From a virus (lineage: Duplodnaviria > Heunggongvirae > Uroviricota > Caudoviricetes): DNA of 30,262 nucleotides. The DNA lies in the IMG/VR virus record IMGVR_UViG_2534681935_000039, positions 1-30,262 of that record; one strand, 5' to 3'. The translations under genes and the position numbers were made by a program. Below, piece after piece: positions 22,118 through 24,424 of this stretch. The first letter of the stretch is position 1, and every line of letters begins with the position of its first letter. A model generated the notes under the pieces. The model was not told where the DNA came from. It did not search any database and saw nothing but the letters and a program-made list of their open reading frames with translations.

Positions 22118-22132
22118 TTACCCCTGAGGTAA
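22118..22132. promoter_or_regulatory. operator-like dyad S3: TTACCC-CTG-AGGTAA
   Basis: Abuts the -10 of the minus-strand promoter and overlaps the RBS region of 21770..22114. Confidence 0.5.
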
Positions 22133-22160
22133 TTAAAAACCACATAAGACACGAAATCAA
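22132..22160 (-). promoter_or_regulatory. early promoter (minus strand): -35 TTGATT, 17-bp spacer, -10 TTTAAT
   Basis: Read on the minus strand at 22160-22155 and 22137-22132; flanked by S4 20 bp upstream and S3 overlapping the -10 end. Confidence 0.45.
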
Positions 22161-22179
22161 TAGATTTTAGAATATTTTA

Positions 22180-22194
22180 TTACCTCATAGGTAA
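22180..22194. promoter_or_regulatory. operator-like dyad S4: TTACCT-CAT-AGGTAA
   Basis: Perfect dyad, extended to ATTACC...GGTAAT. Confidence 0.55.
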
Positions 22195-22231
22195 TTATCG
22201 AGACGTAAAAAAATGCGCTATCGCGCTGGTA

Positions 22232-23032
22232 TTACTTGATAAATCCTGACGCCTTTCCCCGCCTGTATTCCTCCATCAGCCACTGCGCCGGTGTTATTCC
22301 CCCCAGGGTGGCGGCGTTAGGCATACACCCGAAACTTCGCCCTGGTGGATGGTAAACGTCTCTCCCTGTGTCCGGAGGCGTACTCATGGGTTCTGGCTTT
22401 GCCTGTATGCTGATCACCGGATCGGGTATCTGCTGTCCGGAAGCCACCTTTTTCGCCCAATCATCGAGCAGCCTGCGCGCGTGTTTCTCAACCTCAATCT
22501 CGCTAAGCTGGCGCTGATACATTGCACGGCGGGTATCACATACGACCCAGTACATAACCGGATGCCGCCACGGGAATCTTTCGGGACCACCAGGATATAA
22601 ACTTTTTTCCTTGCTGTACCGGTGAAACTCCGCCATCACATCGTCAATGGTGACGCCAAGAACCATCTTGCTGTCTTTGCACCACTTGATAAATTGCCCT
22701 GGAGACGGCCAGAACGGAGATTCACTGGCGCGGGCGTGGCGCATACCAGCAGAAACCTGTTCACGGGTTCGGATCCCCCCTTCGGCAAACGCAGCAATCC
22801 ACTGCTGTTTTGCAGCAACTTCCTGCTCTGGCGTCTTCAGGTTGGTTACCACTGCCGCCGGAAACAGTTGTTTCAGCTGTTTAAAAAGGGCATCAACAAG
22901 CCTCTCTGCTGACATGTTCACCACATTGTCATTGTTGACGTACTGATGCTCATAACCTGACATGCGAGAAAGGGCTTCTCCGTCACGGTTTTGTATCGCG
23001 GTAAAAACGTTGTTCACAAGAAATCCTCCCAT
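22232..23032 (-). CDS. replication protein P-like helicase loader (266 aa; start may be GTG 23017 after a GGGAGG RBS)
   Basis: Block SPFWPSPGQFIKWC and surrounding WIAAFAEGGIRTREQVSAGMR closely parallel lambda P as recalled; follows the O-like gene with overlap. Confidence 0.7.
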   Translation of the reverse strand: MGGFLVNNVFTAIQNRDGEALSRMSGYEHQYVNNDNVVNMSAERLVDALFKQLKQLFPAAVVTNLKTPEQEVAAKQQWIAAFAEGGIRTREQVSAGMRHARASESPFWPSPGQFIKWCKDSKMVLGVTIDDVMAEFHRYSKEKSLYPGGPERFPWRHPVMYWVVCDTRRAMYQRQLSEIEVEKHARRLLDDWAKKVASGQQIPDPVISIQAKPEPMSTPPDTGRDVYHPPGRSFGCMPNAATLGGITPAQWLMEEYRRGKASGFIK

Positions 23033-23829
23033 GCTTCAGGGCTGTTCCAGTGCGGAACGTTGTTATCAGGTAATGTTGATTGCTTCTGTCTGCTAATCTG
23101 CAGCCGCCTTGCCAGCTTCTGCTCCCACTGTGCCTGATGGTATGCCTTACCCTCAGCCATCCAGTAAATTCTGAACTCTGCAAGTTCCTGTGCCGTTGGC
23201 AGACTGTCCAGGTATATCCCCTGCAATGAGCTTTTCCGGAGAAAGTCATCTGATGGCTGCCATTGTTCATGCATGACAAATTTGCCTAATTGCCCTGGCC
23301 CACCAGGAGGAACAAAGTTATTCATCACGGCGTTGTTTGCGCCGGGGTCATGAGGCACAGAATCCCCGCTTTTTGTCCTGCTCTCCCTCTCTTGGTTAAA
23401 TGGCTGGTTATATGACTGGTTCTGGATCCCGTTTTTGGGATCATTCAACATCCCGTTTTTGGGATCATTCAACATCCCGTTTTTGGGTATATTCCCGTTT
23501 TCGGTAACATTACCGTTTTCGGGTTCATTACCCCCTTCCCGGTTGCCTTTAATGTTCCCGTTTTTGGTTATATTAAGAGAGAAAACCCGTACTCTTTTCG
23601 TCGCCCCCTTTCTCTCTCCGGTATCTGAAATAAGCCCCATTTTCATGAGCGATATAAGTCCGGCCTGCACGGTTTTTTTATTCAGGCAAGTGTCTTTAAC
23701 GAGGCGTTCTATGCTGGGGTAGCAGAGGTTATATTCATCGGCTCTGTCAGCCATCGAGAGCAGTATGAGCTTTAATGACGAGCTACCTGGATCTGTCTCC
23801 CAGGCCCAATCTGTTGCATGTCTGCTCAT
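23014..23829 (-). CDS. replication initiator, lambda O-like N-terminal DNA-binding domain with DnaT-like C-terminal region (271 aa)
   Basis: N-terminal LKLILLSMADRADEYNLCYPSIERL pattern like lambda O; internal tandem DNA repeats encode the NGN...KNGMLNDP linker; GGAG RBS. Confidence 0.65.
   Translation of the reverse strand: MSRHATDWAWETDPGSSSLKLILLSMADRADEYNLCYPSIERLVKDTCLNKKTVQAGLISLMKMGLISDTGERKGATKRVRVFSLNITKNGNIKGNREGGNEPENGNVTENGNIPKNGMLNDPKNGMLNDPKNGIQNQSYNQPFNQERESRTKSGDSVPHDPGANNAVMNNFVPPGGPGQLGKFVMHEQWQPSDDFLRKSSLQGIYLDSLPTAQELAEFRIYWMAEGKAYHQAQWEQKLARRLQISRQKQSTLPDNNVPHWNSPEAWEDFL
23426..23570. repeat. iteron array (candidate replication origin) inside the O-like gene
   Basis: Six copies of ATCCCGTTTT(T)GGGAT-like units starting near 23426, 23450, 23474, 23492, 23509 and 23555 (periods 24, 24, 18, 18, 45 bp). 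Confidence 0.6.
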
Positions 23830-23844
23830 GATTAATCTCCGCTA

Positions 23845-24045
23845 TCAGCTTGAATGTTGTGGGGAGGAATTAATCATGATCTGCTTAATCTCTGCCCTGA
23901 TGCGACGGTTTGATTCCATGGTGCACTCAACACAGTGTCCGTTGTAAACCCAGCGTTCACTGTCATGTCCGTGCTTACATGGTTTTCCGGTGTAGTAGCG
24001 TTTAAGTCCGCGCTTTGCGGCATCAATACGTGTAATGATTTCCAT
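23845..24045 (-). CDS. small Cys/His-containing hypothetical protein (66 aa from ATG 24045; ORF track extends to TTG 24096)
   Basis: GKPCKHGH...NGHCVEC motif; occupies the cII-like position between cro-like and O-like genes; function not inferred. Confidence 0.35.
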   Translation of the reverse strand: MEIITRIDAAKRGLKRYYTGKPCKHGHDSERWVYNGHCVECTMESNRRIRAEIKQIMINSSPQHSS

Positions 24046-24123
24046 GGTAAGCCCTGTTATTAGTATTGGGATTACGATTATTTTGTGCTGACACAAAAAA
24101 AGATCAACCAGATTTGGTTTTTA

Positions 24124-24138
24124 TTACCTTTGAGGTAC
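24124..24138. promoter_or_regulatory. operator-like dyad S5: TTACCT-TTG-AGGTAC (one mismatch)
   Basis: Located just beyond the cro-like terminator and upstream of the 66-aa gene. Confidence 0.4.
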
Positions 24139-24149
24139 GAATAGATATG

Positions 24150-24171
24150 AAAAGACCGCCGGATGGCGGTC
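24150..24171 (-). terminator. rho-independent terminator after the cro-like gene
   Basis: GACCGCC-AUCC-GGCGGUC 7-bp stem followed by UUUU on the minus transcript, 23 nt after the stop at 24194. Confidence 0.6.
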
Positions 24172-24193
24172 TACAGAGGGTTGTTGCCAGATA

Positions 24194-24424
24194 TCATGAG
24201 TAGAAGAAGTATGCCAGTTCCGCTTTTGAGCGCAGCCATTGTCTTGTTTTACAGGCTTTAAAAAGCCCATTCATCAATACCTTACCTGGCATTTTGCGCT
24301 TACCTGTTAAGTGAGTCTGGATATAGTGACTCGTCGTTCCGGCTTCCTGTGCGAAGGCTTCACGCTCATCCGGAGTAAGTGCAAGCCAGTGCTTTTTGAA
24401 ATCGAAATGTCCGTTATCGCTCAT
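24194..24424 (-). CDS. Cro-like small HTH regulator (76 aa)
   Basis: First gene of the leftward early operon, divergent from the repressor gene across a three-operator region; helix-turn-helix-like stretch EAFAQEAGTTSHYIQTHL. Confidence 0.45.
   Translation of the reverse strand: MSDNGHFDFKKHWLALTPDEREAFAQEAGTTSHYIQTHLTGKRKMPGKVLMNGLFKACKTRQWLRSKAELAYFFYS

What the first reader, a model, noticed from the sequence alone, without database searches (positions are those of the whole stretch)
23426..23570. Iteron array inside the O-like gene marks a likely replication origin
Six tandem copies of an ATCCC-GTTTTT-GGGAT-like unit with 24/24/18/18/45-bp periods lie within the linker of the O-like initiator gene; they encode the repetitive NGN...KNGMLNDPKNGMLNDP peptide. 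This is the classic lambda arrangement of origin within the initiator gene, but the iteron sequence is specific to this phage and each unit is itself a short inverted repeat.
Basis: partly seen in the sequence, partly recalled or inferred. Interest (0 to 1): 0.5.

Follow-up and report, generated by a model that had tools for sequence, protein, structure and literature searches.

The report
Replication-origin iterons inside phage initiator gene
A phiV10-like E. coli phage carries, inside its own replication-initiator gene, six repeated binding-site-like DNA motifs followed by a second short repeat; relatives show these are conserved as DNA rather than as protein, so this is very probably the phage's lambda-style replication origin, which is an expected feature but not yet annotated.

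Summary
Six copies of CCGTTTTYGG lie at 23426-23570 with spacings of 24/24/18/18/45 bp. None occurs elsewhere in the window, where 0.11 are expected by chance.

They sit in the linker of a 271-aa initiator (23014-23829, minus strand). The initiator has an N-terminal HTH_36 winged-helix domain and a C-terminal DnaT-like domain, and it overlaps a lambda-P-type helicase-loader gene. The window is a phiV10-like (Uetakevirus) phage.

The main evidence comes from relatives. Prophages from E. coli to Vibrio, Acinetobacter and Desulfovibrio that share only the N-terminal domain (36-85% identity) carry the same CCnAAAAnnGG motif at the same place and in the same orientation. In about half of them the copies lie in different reading frames of one intact ORF. 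The repeat is therefore a DNA element, not a peptide repeat.

A second conserved element follows. Two to four 12/13-mers (GAAyCnnnCA) start exactly 16 nt after the last iteron core (window 23387-23422). Some relatives then have an A-rich tract, as in lambda.

The origin interpretation is supported but not tested by experiment. Two corrections apply: the iteron is not specific to this phage, and the window has no AT-rich block. This is a new member of a known kind, of moderate interest.

The parts
23014..23829 (-). Replication initiator gene, 271 aa. It has an N-terminal HTH_36 winged-helix domain, a repeat-bearing linker and a C-terminal DnaT-like domain.
   Evidence: ORF. Pfam HTH_36 at residues 18-67 (E 1.8e-10) and DnaT at residues 184-252 (E 1.2e-15). 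phrog_1032 'replication initiation protein', E 1e-107. 96.7-100% DNA identity to phiV10-type phages.
23572..23829 (-). Coding region of the conserved N-terminal DNA-binding domain (about residues 1-86), the presumed iteron reader.
   Evidence: This is the only part conserved with the Edwardsiella, Vibrio and Acinetobacter phage initiators (alignment A1). 3,832 clusters at 50% identity carry it, always at the N-terminus in the 150 best matches listed.
23426..23570 (.). Iteron array of six 16-bp units with the A-run on the coding (minus) strand. Plus-strand sequences: 23426 ATCCCGTTTTTGGGAT, 23450 ATCCCGTTTTTGGGAT, 23474 ATCCCGTTTTTGGGTA, 23492 TTCCCGTTTTCGGTAA, 23510 TTACCGTTTTCGGGTT, 23555 TTCCCGTTTTTGGTTA.
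   Evidence: The copy number varies from 5 to 9 in close relatives, by whole 18- or 24-bp units. The same motif sits at the same gene position in distant relatives, often in other reading frames.
23426..23489 (.). The three proximal iterons, 24 bp apart, with the conserved spacer GTTGAAT on the coding strand. They have the best dyad symmetry and are almost invariant among close relatives.
   Evidence: Two units have 5/5 symmetric arms. Gene nt 344-443 has 2 variable sites in 100, against about 12% elsewhere, in 58 alleles. The TTGAAT spacer is conserved in 19 distinct loci.
23387..23422 (-). Three tandem 12-mers on the coding strand: GAACCAGTCATA, TAACCAGCCATT, TAACCAAGAGAG. This is a second conserved origin element and a candidate unwinding or single-strand-binding site.
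   Evidence: TRF finds period 12 at 23393-23421. phiV10 has one more copy. In 18 of 19 distinct loci the first copy starts exactly 16 nt after the start of the last iteron core. The motif is 60-fold enriched here compared with the rest of the loci, and spacings of 12 or 13 nt put copies in different frames.
23355..23394 (-). Purine-rich tract on the coding strand (75% A+G, GC 0.55). It occupies the position where some relatives have an A-rich tract.
   Evidence: composition. (A-rich tracts in L090, L096, L097 and L099 at the equivalent place).
23035..23292 (-). Coding region of the DnaT-like C-terminal domain (residues 180-265).
   Evidence: phmmer against PDB sequences matches E. coli DnaT residues 85-170, E 6.7e-21 (9zbt, 6aep, 4ou6). 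This is the only part shared with Uetakevirus relatives SPN1S and Tyrion.
22232..23032 (-). Lambda-P-type helicase-loader gene. Its start overlaps the end of the initiator gene by 19 nt.
   Evidence: Pfam Phage_lambda_P, E 1.5e-56. phrog_109 'P-like helicase loader'.
24153..24172 (-). Terminator-like hairpin between the cro-like gene and the replication genes (context only).
   Evidence: Consensus scan. A terminator is annotated at the equivalent place in phiV10.

Best explanation
The array is the initiator-binding part of the phage's origin of replication, embedded in the initiator gene as in lambda.

Proposed steps:
1. Early transcription from the cro side produces the 271-aa initiator and the P-like loader.
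2. Dimers of the initiator's N-terminal winged-helix domain bind the 16-bp units (CCnAAAAnnGG core, partly symmetric arms, one A5 tract each). They bind best at the three 24-bp-spaced units next to the 12-mers, and build a lambda 'O-some'-like complex.
3. The strain opens the DNA just downstream in the direction of transcription, at the 12-mer repeats and purine tract (23355-23422).
4. The DnaT-like C-terminal domain holds single-stranded DNA and/or the loader, and the P-like protein delivers host DnaB.

Shown here: the repeats exist; they are DNA-level elements; they are conserved family-wide; their position, orientation and register with the 12-mers are fixed; and they are co-inherited with the DNA-binding domain. 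Inferred by analogy with lambda and with iteron plasmids: binding, unwinding site, helicase loading, and origin activity itself.
For: 1. The array is not a chance occurrence: 6 core matches against 0.11 expected, all within 145 bp.
2. Gene context: an HTH_36 plus DnaT-like initiator directly upstream of, and overlapping, a lambda-P-family gene.
3. Phage and prophage initiators sharing only the N-terminal domain all carry arrays of the same core at gene nt ~260-540. These come from Edwardsiella GF-2, Vibrio Her, Acinetobacter Ab105-2phi and AP22, PPompW, and most of 25 genome loci from Gamma-, Beta-, Alpha- and Deltaproteobacteria. The arrays are always in coding-strand orientation, with almost no matches on the same strand outside the gene in the 3.4-4.8-kb loci (two, both in L102).
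4. Spacings of 17, 23 or 25 bp put copies in different frames of intact ORFs in about 11 of 22 loci. In L090 one motif is read as PKNG, PKTE and QKRT.
5. More divergent N-terminal domains carry different repeats at the same place (L107, L109, L111, L104/105).
6. Arm symmetry co-varies: ATCCC/GGGAT, CCCCC/GGGGG, GTACC/GGTAC, GACCC/GGGTC.
7. Uetakevirus relatives with another N-terminal half (SPN1S, Tyrion) lack the array. GF-2 joins this N-terminus, iterons and 12-mers to a lambda-O-type C-terminus.
8. Among 58 close alleles, third-codon-position diversity is 0.007 in iteron cores and 0 in the 12-mers, against 0.031 in the N-terminal domain and 0.078 in inter-iteron spacers.
9. Relatives L090, L096 and L097 have their least stable 30-mer (z 2.5-3.5), an A-rich tract, right after the 12-mers. 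This is the lambda order of iterons then AT-rich region.
10. The lambda O N-terminus and this N-terminus hit the same PHROG profiles (phrog_678, phrog_345) over the same profile region.
11. An 8,461-bp circular E. coli plasmid record has a PPompW-type member of this family, with iterons, plus P as its only recognisable replication genes.
Against: - No experiment exists, and I found no literature on this origin.
- The window has no AT-rich block next to the array. 30-bp duplex stability there is -37 to -39 kcal/mol against a window mean of -41.2 (sd 3.0). The least stable stretch of the gene (-34) is on the other side, at 23550-23599.
- Only 2 of the 6 units are fully symmetric.
- The direct profile comparison with lambda O is not significant (probability 1%), and the Pfam Phage_rep_O model is not matched.
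- GC skew does not localise an origin, because it is confounded by gene orientation.
- The small plasmid record could be an assembly artefact or an excision product.
Confidence: 0.8

Rival explanations
1. The repeats are real binding sites for the initiator, but their main role is not initiation at this spot. They could serve copy-number control, titration or handcuffing, exclusion of related phages, or autoregulation by roadblock. Strand opening would then occur elsewhere, for example in the AT-rich intergenic regions at 24040-24140 or 22120-22210.
For: The window has no AT-rich tract beside the array, while the intergenic regions at 24060-24150 and 22120-22210 have GC 0.27-0.35. Iterons in plasmids also act in copy control (general knowledge of iteron plasmids; reviewed in PMC4980987).
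Against: Those AT-rich regions are the terminator and promoter gaps annotated in phiV10, and they hold no copies of the motif. No iteron copy lies near the promoter. The fixed 16-nt register with the 12-mers, and the A-rich tract after them in relatives, point to opening next to the array.
Confidence: 0.1
2. The repeat is only a protein-level feature: a low-complexity N/G/P/K-rich flexible linker that grew by slippage and has no function as DNA.
For: In this window all six copies are in one frame, all spacings are multiples of 3, and the peptide is repetitive. Copy number drifts between 5 and 9 in close relatives.
Against: In relatives the same DNA motif is kept in two or three reading frames of one intact ORF, giving unrelated peptides. 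Orientation and core sequence are kept from E. coli to Desulfovibrio while the rest of the linker is not. Synonymous sites in the cores are less variable than those in the folded N-terminal domain.
Confidence: 0.03
3. The units act as hairpins in RNA or single-stranded DNA. They could affect mRNA structure, or act as antisense intrinsic terminators formed by neighbouring arms plus the T-run on the plus strand.
For: The terminator scan picks up TGGGATCATTCAACATCCCG followed by TTTTT at 23436-23455 and 23460-23479 on the plus strand. Two units are perfect 5-bp palindromes.
Against: The single-strand fold of the array is not exceptional (z -1.55; 15 of 200 shuffles fold as well). Most units keep only 2-3 arm pairs, and no G-T compensation is seen. 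What is conserved is the sequence CCnAAAAnnGG, not pairing. No Rfam family matches.
Confidence: 0.03

Closest known systems
Bacteriophage lambda origin (ori-lambda) inside gene O, and the Stx-phage variants with six iterons
   Same: - The iterons lie in the middle of the initiator gene, between the DNA-binding N-terminus and the C-terminus.
- All copies share one orientation, with the A-run on the coding strand.
- The units have dyad arms of the same type: lambda ATCCCTCAAAACGAGGGA against ATCCCAAAAACGGGAT here (PMC7466680).
- A P-type loader gene follows.
- Iteron number varies between relatives: 4 in lambda and 6 in Stx phages (PMC7466680), 5-9 here.
- Some relatives have an A-rich tract after the repeats.
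   Different: - The unit is 16 bp rather than 18-19 bp, so the TCCC and GGGA arms are 10 nt apart instead of 13.
- The N-terminal domain is Pfam HTH_36, not Phage_rep_O.
- The C-terminal domain is DnaT-like, not lambda-O-type.
- This window has no AT-rich block.
- A conserved 12/13-mer repeat lies between the iterons and the A-rich or purine tract. I did not see one in the lambda sequence read.
DopC/DopE of Cellvibrionales and Oceanospirillales (Brezellec et al. 2017, PMC5509034)
   Same: The two-gene architecture is the same: HTH_36 plus a DnaT C-terminal motif, followed by a lambda-P-like protein. The authors derive this pair from lambdoid phage O and P.
   Different: The authors found no iteron-like sequences in dopC and concluded it no longer serves as an origin. 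The phage gene here carries a full array. It therefore looks like the undomesticated, origin-bearing form of that architecture.
Iteron origins of plasmids (RK2, pPS10, R6K), whose unwinding element carries sequence-specific repeats bound by Rep as single-stranded DNA (PMC4081077)
   Same: There are direct repeats bound by a winged-helix initiator, with a neighbouring set of short repeats (13-mers in RK2, 12/13-mers here) where opening would occur.
   Different: Plasmid origins lie outside the rep gene and their unwinding element is AT-rich. Here everything is inside the coding sequence, the 12-mers have GC 0.42, and binding to them has not been tested.
E. coli DnaT (primosomal protein, replication restart)
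   Same: The C-terminal 85 residues match DnaT residues 85-170 (E 6.7e-21).
   Different: DnaT has no winged-helix N-terminus and no cognate iterons. GenBank names such as 'primosomal protein I' for this gene reflect that one domain only.

Membership tests
Lambda-type origin (ori within the initiator gene, O/P module) | Four or more direct repeats with internal dyad symmetry in the middle of the initiator gene | tested here: met
   Six units at 23426-23570 in the linker (residues 87-136). Two are perfectly symmetric and the rest partly so.
Lambda-type origin (ori within the initiator gene, O/P module) | The initiator gene is followed by a lambda-P-family helicase-loader gene | tested here: met
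   Pfam Phage_lambda_P, E 1.5e-56, for 22232-23032, which overlaps the initiator stop.
Lambda-type origin (ori within the initiator gene, O/P module) | The N-terminal domain belongs to Pfam Phage_rep_O (PF04492) | tested here: not met
   Only HTH_36 passes the threshold. Relatives give Phage_rep_O E-values of 0.13-0.26. hhalign against lambda O gives probability 1%. Remote relatedness is suggested only by shared hits to phrog_678 and phrog_345 and by the HHpred statement in PMC5509034.
Lambda-type origin (ori within the initiator gene, O/P module) | A lambda-O-type C-terminal (P-interacting) domain | tested here: not met
   The C-terminus is DnaT-like. The relative GF-2 does have the lambda-O-type C-terminus (phrog_277).
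Lambda-type origin (ori within the initiator gene, O/P module) | An AT-rich region of about 40 bp directly after the iterons in the direction of transcription | tested here: not met
   In the window, GC is 0.42-0.55 there and duplex stability is only about 1 sd below the mean. The feature is present in relatives L090, L096, L097 and L099, after the 12-mers.
Lambda-type origin (ori within the initiator gene, O/P module) | Initiator-dependent replication of a fragment carrying the repeats | not testable with these tools
   This needs cloning and replication assays. The only natural hint is an 8.4-kb circular plasmid record with a related module.
HTH_36 plus DnaT_C initiator with P-like partner (phage ancestor of DopC/DopE) | HTH_36 at the N-terminus, a DnaT C-terminal motif, and an adjacent P-like gene | tested here: met
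   The architecture is as described in PMC5509034.
Protein-level tandem repeat (linker only) | The repeat is conserved as a peptide, in one frame, with free synonymous sites | tested here: not met
   The motif is kept in 2-3 frames in about 11 of 22 related loci. Synonymous diversity in the cores is lower than in the folded domain.
Known RNA families (Rfam 15) | A match to a covariance model over the array | tested here: not met
   There is no hit in 23300-23600 at E <= 1.

The most novel reading that the evidence does not exclude
The conserved 12/13-mer repeats (GAAyCnnnCA, two to four copies) may be a distinct, sequence-specific origin element. They are locked 16 nt after the last iteron core in prophages from Enterobacterales to Desulfovibrio. 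They could be an unwinding or single-strand-binding site read by the initiator, comparable to the Rep-bound 13-mers of RK2 or to DnaA-trios. In phages such as this one they would replace the classical AT-rich element. If so, this large initiator family (thousands of clusters) would have a two-part origin code that has not been described, and DopC would be its origin-less, domesticated descendant.
Probability: 0.3. Interest if true: 0.55.

Novelty: new member of a known kind. Interest (0 to 1): 0.4.

Why it matters
- It places the probable origin of phiV10-type phages, which are used as E. coli O157 reporter phages. The same initiator gene occurs at 90% or more DNA identity in 424 of 5,426 complete E. 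coli genomes.
- It places the probable origin for a very large initiator family that databases label 'primosomal protein' or 'helix-turn-helix protein' (3,832 clusters at 50% identity).
- It gives a simple rule for finding such origins: a CCnAAAAnnGG array followed 16 nt later by GAAyC 12-mers.
- It warns annotators that the repetitive peptide is a by-product of DNA sites.
- It provides the origin-bearing counterpart to the domesticated DopC/DopE pair.
- For engineering, recoding or truncating this linker would probably destroy replication.

Tried and rejected
- **AlphaFold2 on the single sequence.** Mean pLDDT was 37, which is unusable, so no fold search was run. The homologue search returned only near-identical E. 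coli variants among its best 120, so no useful alignment could be built for a second model.
- **hhalign of a 3-sequence N-terminal profile against lambda O.** Not significant.
- **Cumulative GC skew.** The minimum is broad (23.6-25.4 kb) and follows the switch of gene orientation, so it is uninformative.
- **Search for an AT-rich unwinding element in the window.** None lies next to the array.
- **DnaA-box and IHF consensus scans.** No sites in 23000-24200.
- **Rfam scan.** Nothing in the array.
- **Single-strand folding.** Not exceptional.
- **Literature searches.** I searched for phiV10 or epsilon15 origins, for the motif strings, and for Rac oriJ. Nothing describes this origin. Weigel & Seitz 2006 is not held.
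- **Rac YdaU.** Checked as a possible known example and rejected. Its N-terminus is DUF1376, a different family.
- **Marinobacterium locus L089.** Checked as a possible DopC with iterons and rejected. It sits in a prophage context with Rha and a phage Dam.

Full report
**What is there**

The sequence at 23426-23570 holds six copies of a 16-bp unit. On the plus strand they read ATCCCGTTTTTGGGAT (twice), ATCCCGTTTTTGGGTA, TTCCCGTTTTCGGTAA, TTACCGTTTTCGGGTT and TTCCCGTTTTTGGTTA. They start at 23426, 23450, 23474, 23492, 23510 and 23555, which gives spacings of 24, 24, 18, 18 and 45 bp. The 10-nt core CCGTTTTYGG occurs six times in the 30-kb window, all of them here. Shuffles expect 0.11.

**Context**

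The window is a phiV10-type (Uetakevirus) E. coli phage or prophage. The gene is 96.7-100% identical to phiV10, phiv142-3, PAS61 and others. It is present at 90% or more DNA identity in 424 of 5,426 complete E. coli genomes.

The repeats lie in a minus-strand ORF, 23014-23829, of 271 aa. Its N-terminus matches Pfam HTH_36 (residues 18-67). Its C-terminus matches the DnaT DNA-binding domain (residues 184-252) and solved E. coli DnaT structures (E 6.7e-21). The whole protein matches phrog_1032, 'replication initiation protein'.

The array encodes residues 87-136, which is the linker. The next gene (22232-23032) overlaps the initiator stop and is a lambda-P-family helicase loader (E 1.5e-56). Upstream lie a small ORF, a terminator-like hairpin (24153-24172), a cro-like gene and a divergent repressor. 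This is the layout of a lambdoid early-right operon.

**Is it a DNA element or only a repetitive peptide?**

The window alone cannot tell, because all six copies share one frame. Relatives can.

- Phage initiators that share only the N-terminal ~90 residues all have arrays of the same core at the same place in the gene. These are Edwardsiella GF-2 (about 50% identity), Vibrio phage Her (40%), Acinetobacter Ab105-2phi and AP22 (about 40%) and PPompW (36%).
- A scan of one genome per species gave 25 further loci. They come from Superficieibacter, Marinobacterium, Vibrio, Phaseolibacter, Wohlfahrtiimonas, Providencia, Proteus, Pseudoalteromonas, Desulfovibrio, Acinetobacter, Sphingobium and others.
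- In nearly all loci with an intact gene, the motif CC[ACG]AAA[AT][ACT][GT]G occurs 3-9 times between gene nt ~260 and 540. It is always on the coding strand, with almost no same-strand matches outside the gene in the 3.4-4.8-kb loci (two, both in L102).
- Spacings of 17, 23 or 25 bp place copies in different reading frames of one intact ORF in about 11 of 22 loci. In Vibrio salinus (L090) the same DNA motif is translated as P-K-N-G, P-K-T-E and Q-K-R-T.
- More divergent N-terminal domains (L104/105, L107, L109, L111) carry different repeats at the same place.
- Among 121 representative proteins of the family (clusters at 50% identity), 99 have at least two, and 81 at least three, xKNG-type motifs right after the domain. 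PKTE and QKRN variants betray the other frames.

The repeat is therefore selected as DNA. It tracks the N-terminal domain, as a binding site tracks its reader.

**Fine structure**

The inner arm pairs (CC/GG) are fixed by the search pattern. The three outer arm positions are symmetric in 43-49% of 84 distinct units, where 25% is expected by chance. Perfect palindromes with different arms occur in different taxa: ATCCC/GGGAT, CCCCC/GGGGG, GTACC/GGTAC and GACCC/GGGTC. This fits binding by a dimer.

What is conserved is the sequence itself, and most units would form only 2-3-bp stems. The single-strand fold is unremarkable (z -1.55) and no Rfam family matches. I therefore reject a hairpin role. 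The terminator-like hits on the plus strand are a by-product of neighbouring arms plus the T-run.

**Variation among close relatives**

Eighty IMG/VR contigs with 91-100% protein identity show that all length variation in the gene comes from gain or loss of whole 18- or 24-bp units (5 to 9 copies) or of one 12-mer. phiV10 has an extra 12-mer and BP9 lacks one 24-bp unit.

In 58 equal-length alleles, third-codon-position diversity is as follows:

| Region | Diversity at third codon positions |
|---|---|
| Iteron cores | 0.007 |
| 12-mers | 0.000 |
| N-terminal domain | 0.031 |
| Inter-iteron spacers | 0.078 |

The three proximal iterons plus the 12-mers (gene nt 344-443) have 2 variable sites in 100, against about 12% elsewhere. 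The numbers are small and repeats can homogenise each other, so this is supporting evidence only.

Tandem 12/13-mers of the form GAAyCnnnCA lie directly downstream of the last iteron, in the direction of transcription. In the window they are GAACCAGTCATA, TAACCAGCCATT and TAACCAAGAGAG, at 23387-23422 on the minus strand.

- In 18 of 19 distinct loci the first copy starts exactly 16 nt after the start of the last iteron core. The last two iterons are 24 bp apart, with a conserved TTGAAT spacer.
- The motif is about 60-fold enriched in this 60-nt stretch compared with the rest of the loci. Spacings of 12 or 13 nt, and different frames between lineages, show that it too is kept as DNA. For example, it is read N-Q-S-Y in the window, N-Q-S-L then E-P-V-I in Vibrio, and E-P-I-I in L106.
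- Its GAACC stays constant while iteron arms change between taxa, so it is not simply an iteron half-site.
- In L090, L096, L097 and L099 an A-rich tract follows. It is the least stable 30-mer of the locus (z 2.5-3.5) in the three loci where this was computed, L090, L096 and L097, and the order is the same as in lambda.
- In the window that place is a purine-rich tract with GC 0.55. No AT-rich block adjoins the array. The least stable part of the gene (23550-23599) lies on the other side, around the isolated first iteron.

**Modularity**

GF-2 joins this N-terminus, the iterons and the 12-mers to a lambda-O-type C-terminus and a P gene. The Acinetobacter phages join them to another C-terminus and a DnaB-like helicase. 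Within Uetakevirus, SPN1S and Tyrion share only the DnaT-like half (from about residue 170) and lack the array. The specificity module (DNA-binding domain plus its sites) is thus exchanged as one block, as is known for lambdoid O genes.

**Comparison with lambda**

The lambda iterons, annotated in NC_001416, are ATCCCTCAAAACGAGGGA, ATCCCCTAAAACGAGGGA, ATCCCTCAAATTGGGGGA and ATCCCTCAAAACAGGGGGA, at spacings of 20, 24 and 23 bp. An AT-rich tract follows them (PMC7466680).

The units here look like a shorter version (ATCCC-AAAAAC-GGGAT), with the arms three base pairs closer together. The lambda O N-terminus is Pfam Phage_rep_O, whereas this one is HTH_36. Neither Pfam nor a shallow hhalign links them significantly. 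Both hit phrog_678 and phrog_345 over the same profile region, and Brezellec et al. report by HHpred that the lambda O N-terminus is HTH_36-like (PMC5509034).

That paper describes DopC/DopE, a domesticated HTH_36 plus DnaT_C protein with a P-like partner, in which no iterons were found. The phage gene here has the same architecture with the iterons intact.

**Mechanism, and what is shown versus inferred**

Shown:
- the repeats and their statistics;
- DNA-level conservation;
- fixed position, orientation and register;
- co-inheritance with the DNA-binding domain;
- the adjacent P-type loader.

Inferred:
- dimers of the N-terminal domain bind the units and form an O-some-like complex;
- the DNA opens at the 12-mers and purine tract;
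- the DnaT-like domain and the P-like protein bring in DnaB.

I give the origin reading 0.8. The main rival (0.1) is that these are initiator sites with a mainly regulatory role and that opening occurs elsewhere. A purely peptide repeat and a hairpin or terminator role get about 0.03 each.

**Novelty and score**

I found no description of this origin. The phiV10 record annotates none, and literature and motif-string searches found nothing. The principle is classical, so I file it as a new member of a known kind. It has two variant traits, a DnaT-like C-terminus and 12/13-mer repeats where lambda has only an AT-rich tract. Interest is 0.4. The most novel reading still open is that the 12/13-mers are a sequence-specific unwinding or single-strand-binding element of a very large initiator family (probability about 0.3).

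Noticed in passing
window 23387-23422 (minus strand); L004, L005, L088-L110 at the equivalent place: Tandem 12/13-mers (GAAyCnnnCA, 2-4 copies) start exactly 16 nt after the start of the last iteron core in 18 of 19 distinct loci. They are kept in different reading frames between and within genes.
   Followed up: yes
L008-L087 (IMG/VR relatives), L001 (phiV10), L002 (BP9): Iteron copy number varies from 5 to 9 among alleles with 91-100% protein identity, always by whole 18- or 24-bp units. phiV10 has one extra 12-mer.
   Followed up: yes
L090 2218-2260; L096, L097, L099 at the equivalent place: An A-rich tract follows the 12-mers in some relatives (for example GAAACTATTAAAAAAAATAACACAAAAAAAACC). 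It is the least stable 30-mer of the locus in L090, L096 and L097, where this was computed. The window has a purine-rich tract with GC 0.55 there instead (23355-23394).
   Followed up: partly
L116 (Salmonella phage SPN1S), L117 (Enterobacter phage Tyrion): Phages of the same genus share only the DnaT-like C-terminal half of the initiator (from about residue 170). They have a different N-terminal half without this array. Where their origins lie is unknown.
   Followed up: partly
L114 = NZ_CP148379.1 (8,461-bp circular E. coli plasmid record); L115 = NZ_CP130688.1: These small plasmid records have, as their only recognisable replication genes, a PPompW/Qin-type HTH_36/DnaT initiator with the same kind of iterons plus a P-like gene. 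L115 also has one iteron in inverted orientation (2480-2495). They could be natural mini-replicons or assembly or excision products.
   Followed up: partly
NZ_CP079771.1 and NZ_CP079768.1 (41,027-bp 'plasmid' records of E. coli HL15 and SF10): The same initiator gene appears both on the chromosome and on a 41-kb plasmid record in these strains. This suggests a circular phage genome in the sequenced culture.
   Followed up: no
PP350014.1 (phage PH444, 114.9 kb, unannotated) and PP488543.1 (phage BP9, Vequintavirus, 138 kb): Records of much larger 'phages' contain a phiV10-type replication segment (100% and 95.6% identity). These may be chimeric assemblies.
   Followed up: no
KP869107.1 and KP869108.1 (O157 typing phages 9 and 10): These linear records begin or end inside this gene. 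Typing phage 10 ends at the position equivalent to about 23529 in the window, inside the array. This is probably an assembly break at the repeats.
   Followed up: no
window 23425, 23439, 23463: Three GATC (Dam) sites lie in or at the edge of the three proximal iterons. This is not conserved in more distant relatives.
   Followed up: no
window 23362-23378: An iteron-like half site, ATCCCCGCTTTTTGTCC, lies beyond the 12-mers. BP9 has ATCCCCGTTTT at the equivalent place. It is seen only in the closest lineage.
   Followed up: no
window 23436-23455 and 23460-23479 (plus strand): These are terminator-like hairpins formed by the right arm of one iteron and the left arm of the next, followed by TTTTT. 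They are probably a by-product of the repeat geometry.
   Followed up: partly
L118 (E. coli K-12 Rac, ydaU 2120-2977): Rac YdaU has a DUF1376 N-terminus, with a C-terminus that matches the DnaT-like domain here (tblastn hit H82; no Pfam DnaT hit), and its own weak repeats (AAGCAGATGTTCAA, four copies). It belongs to a different initiator family but may follow the same principle. Rac is reported to have an active origin, oriJ (PMC3945230).
   Followed up: partly
L004 (Edwardsiella phage GF-2) 1501-2343: This is a natural hybrid initiator. It combines the N-terminus, iterons and 12-mers of this family with a lambda-O-type C-terminus, including a near-copy of the lambda sequence GAGAATTCTG.CGAATCCTC.GAC after the repeats.
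   Followed up: partly
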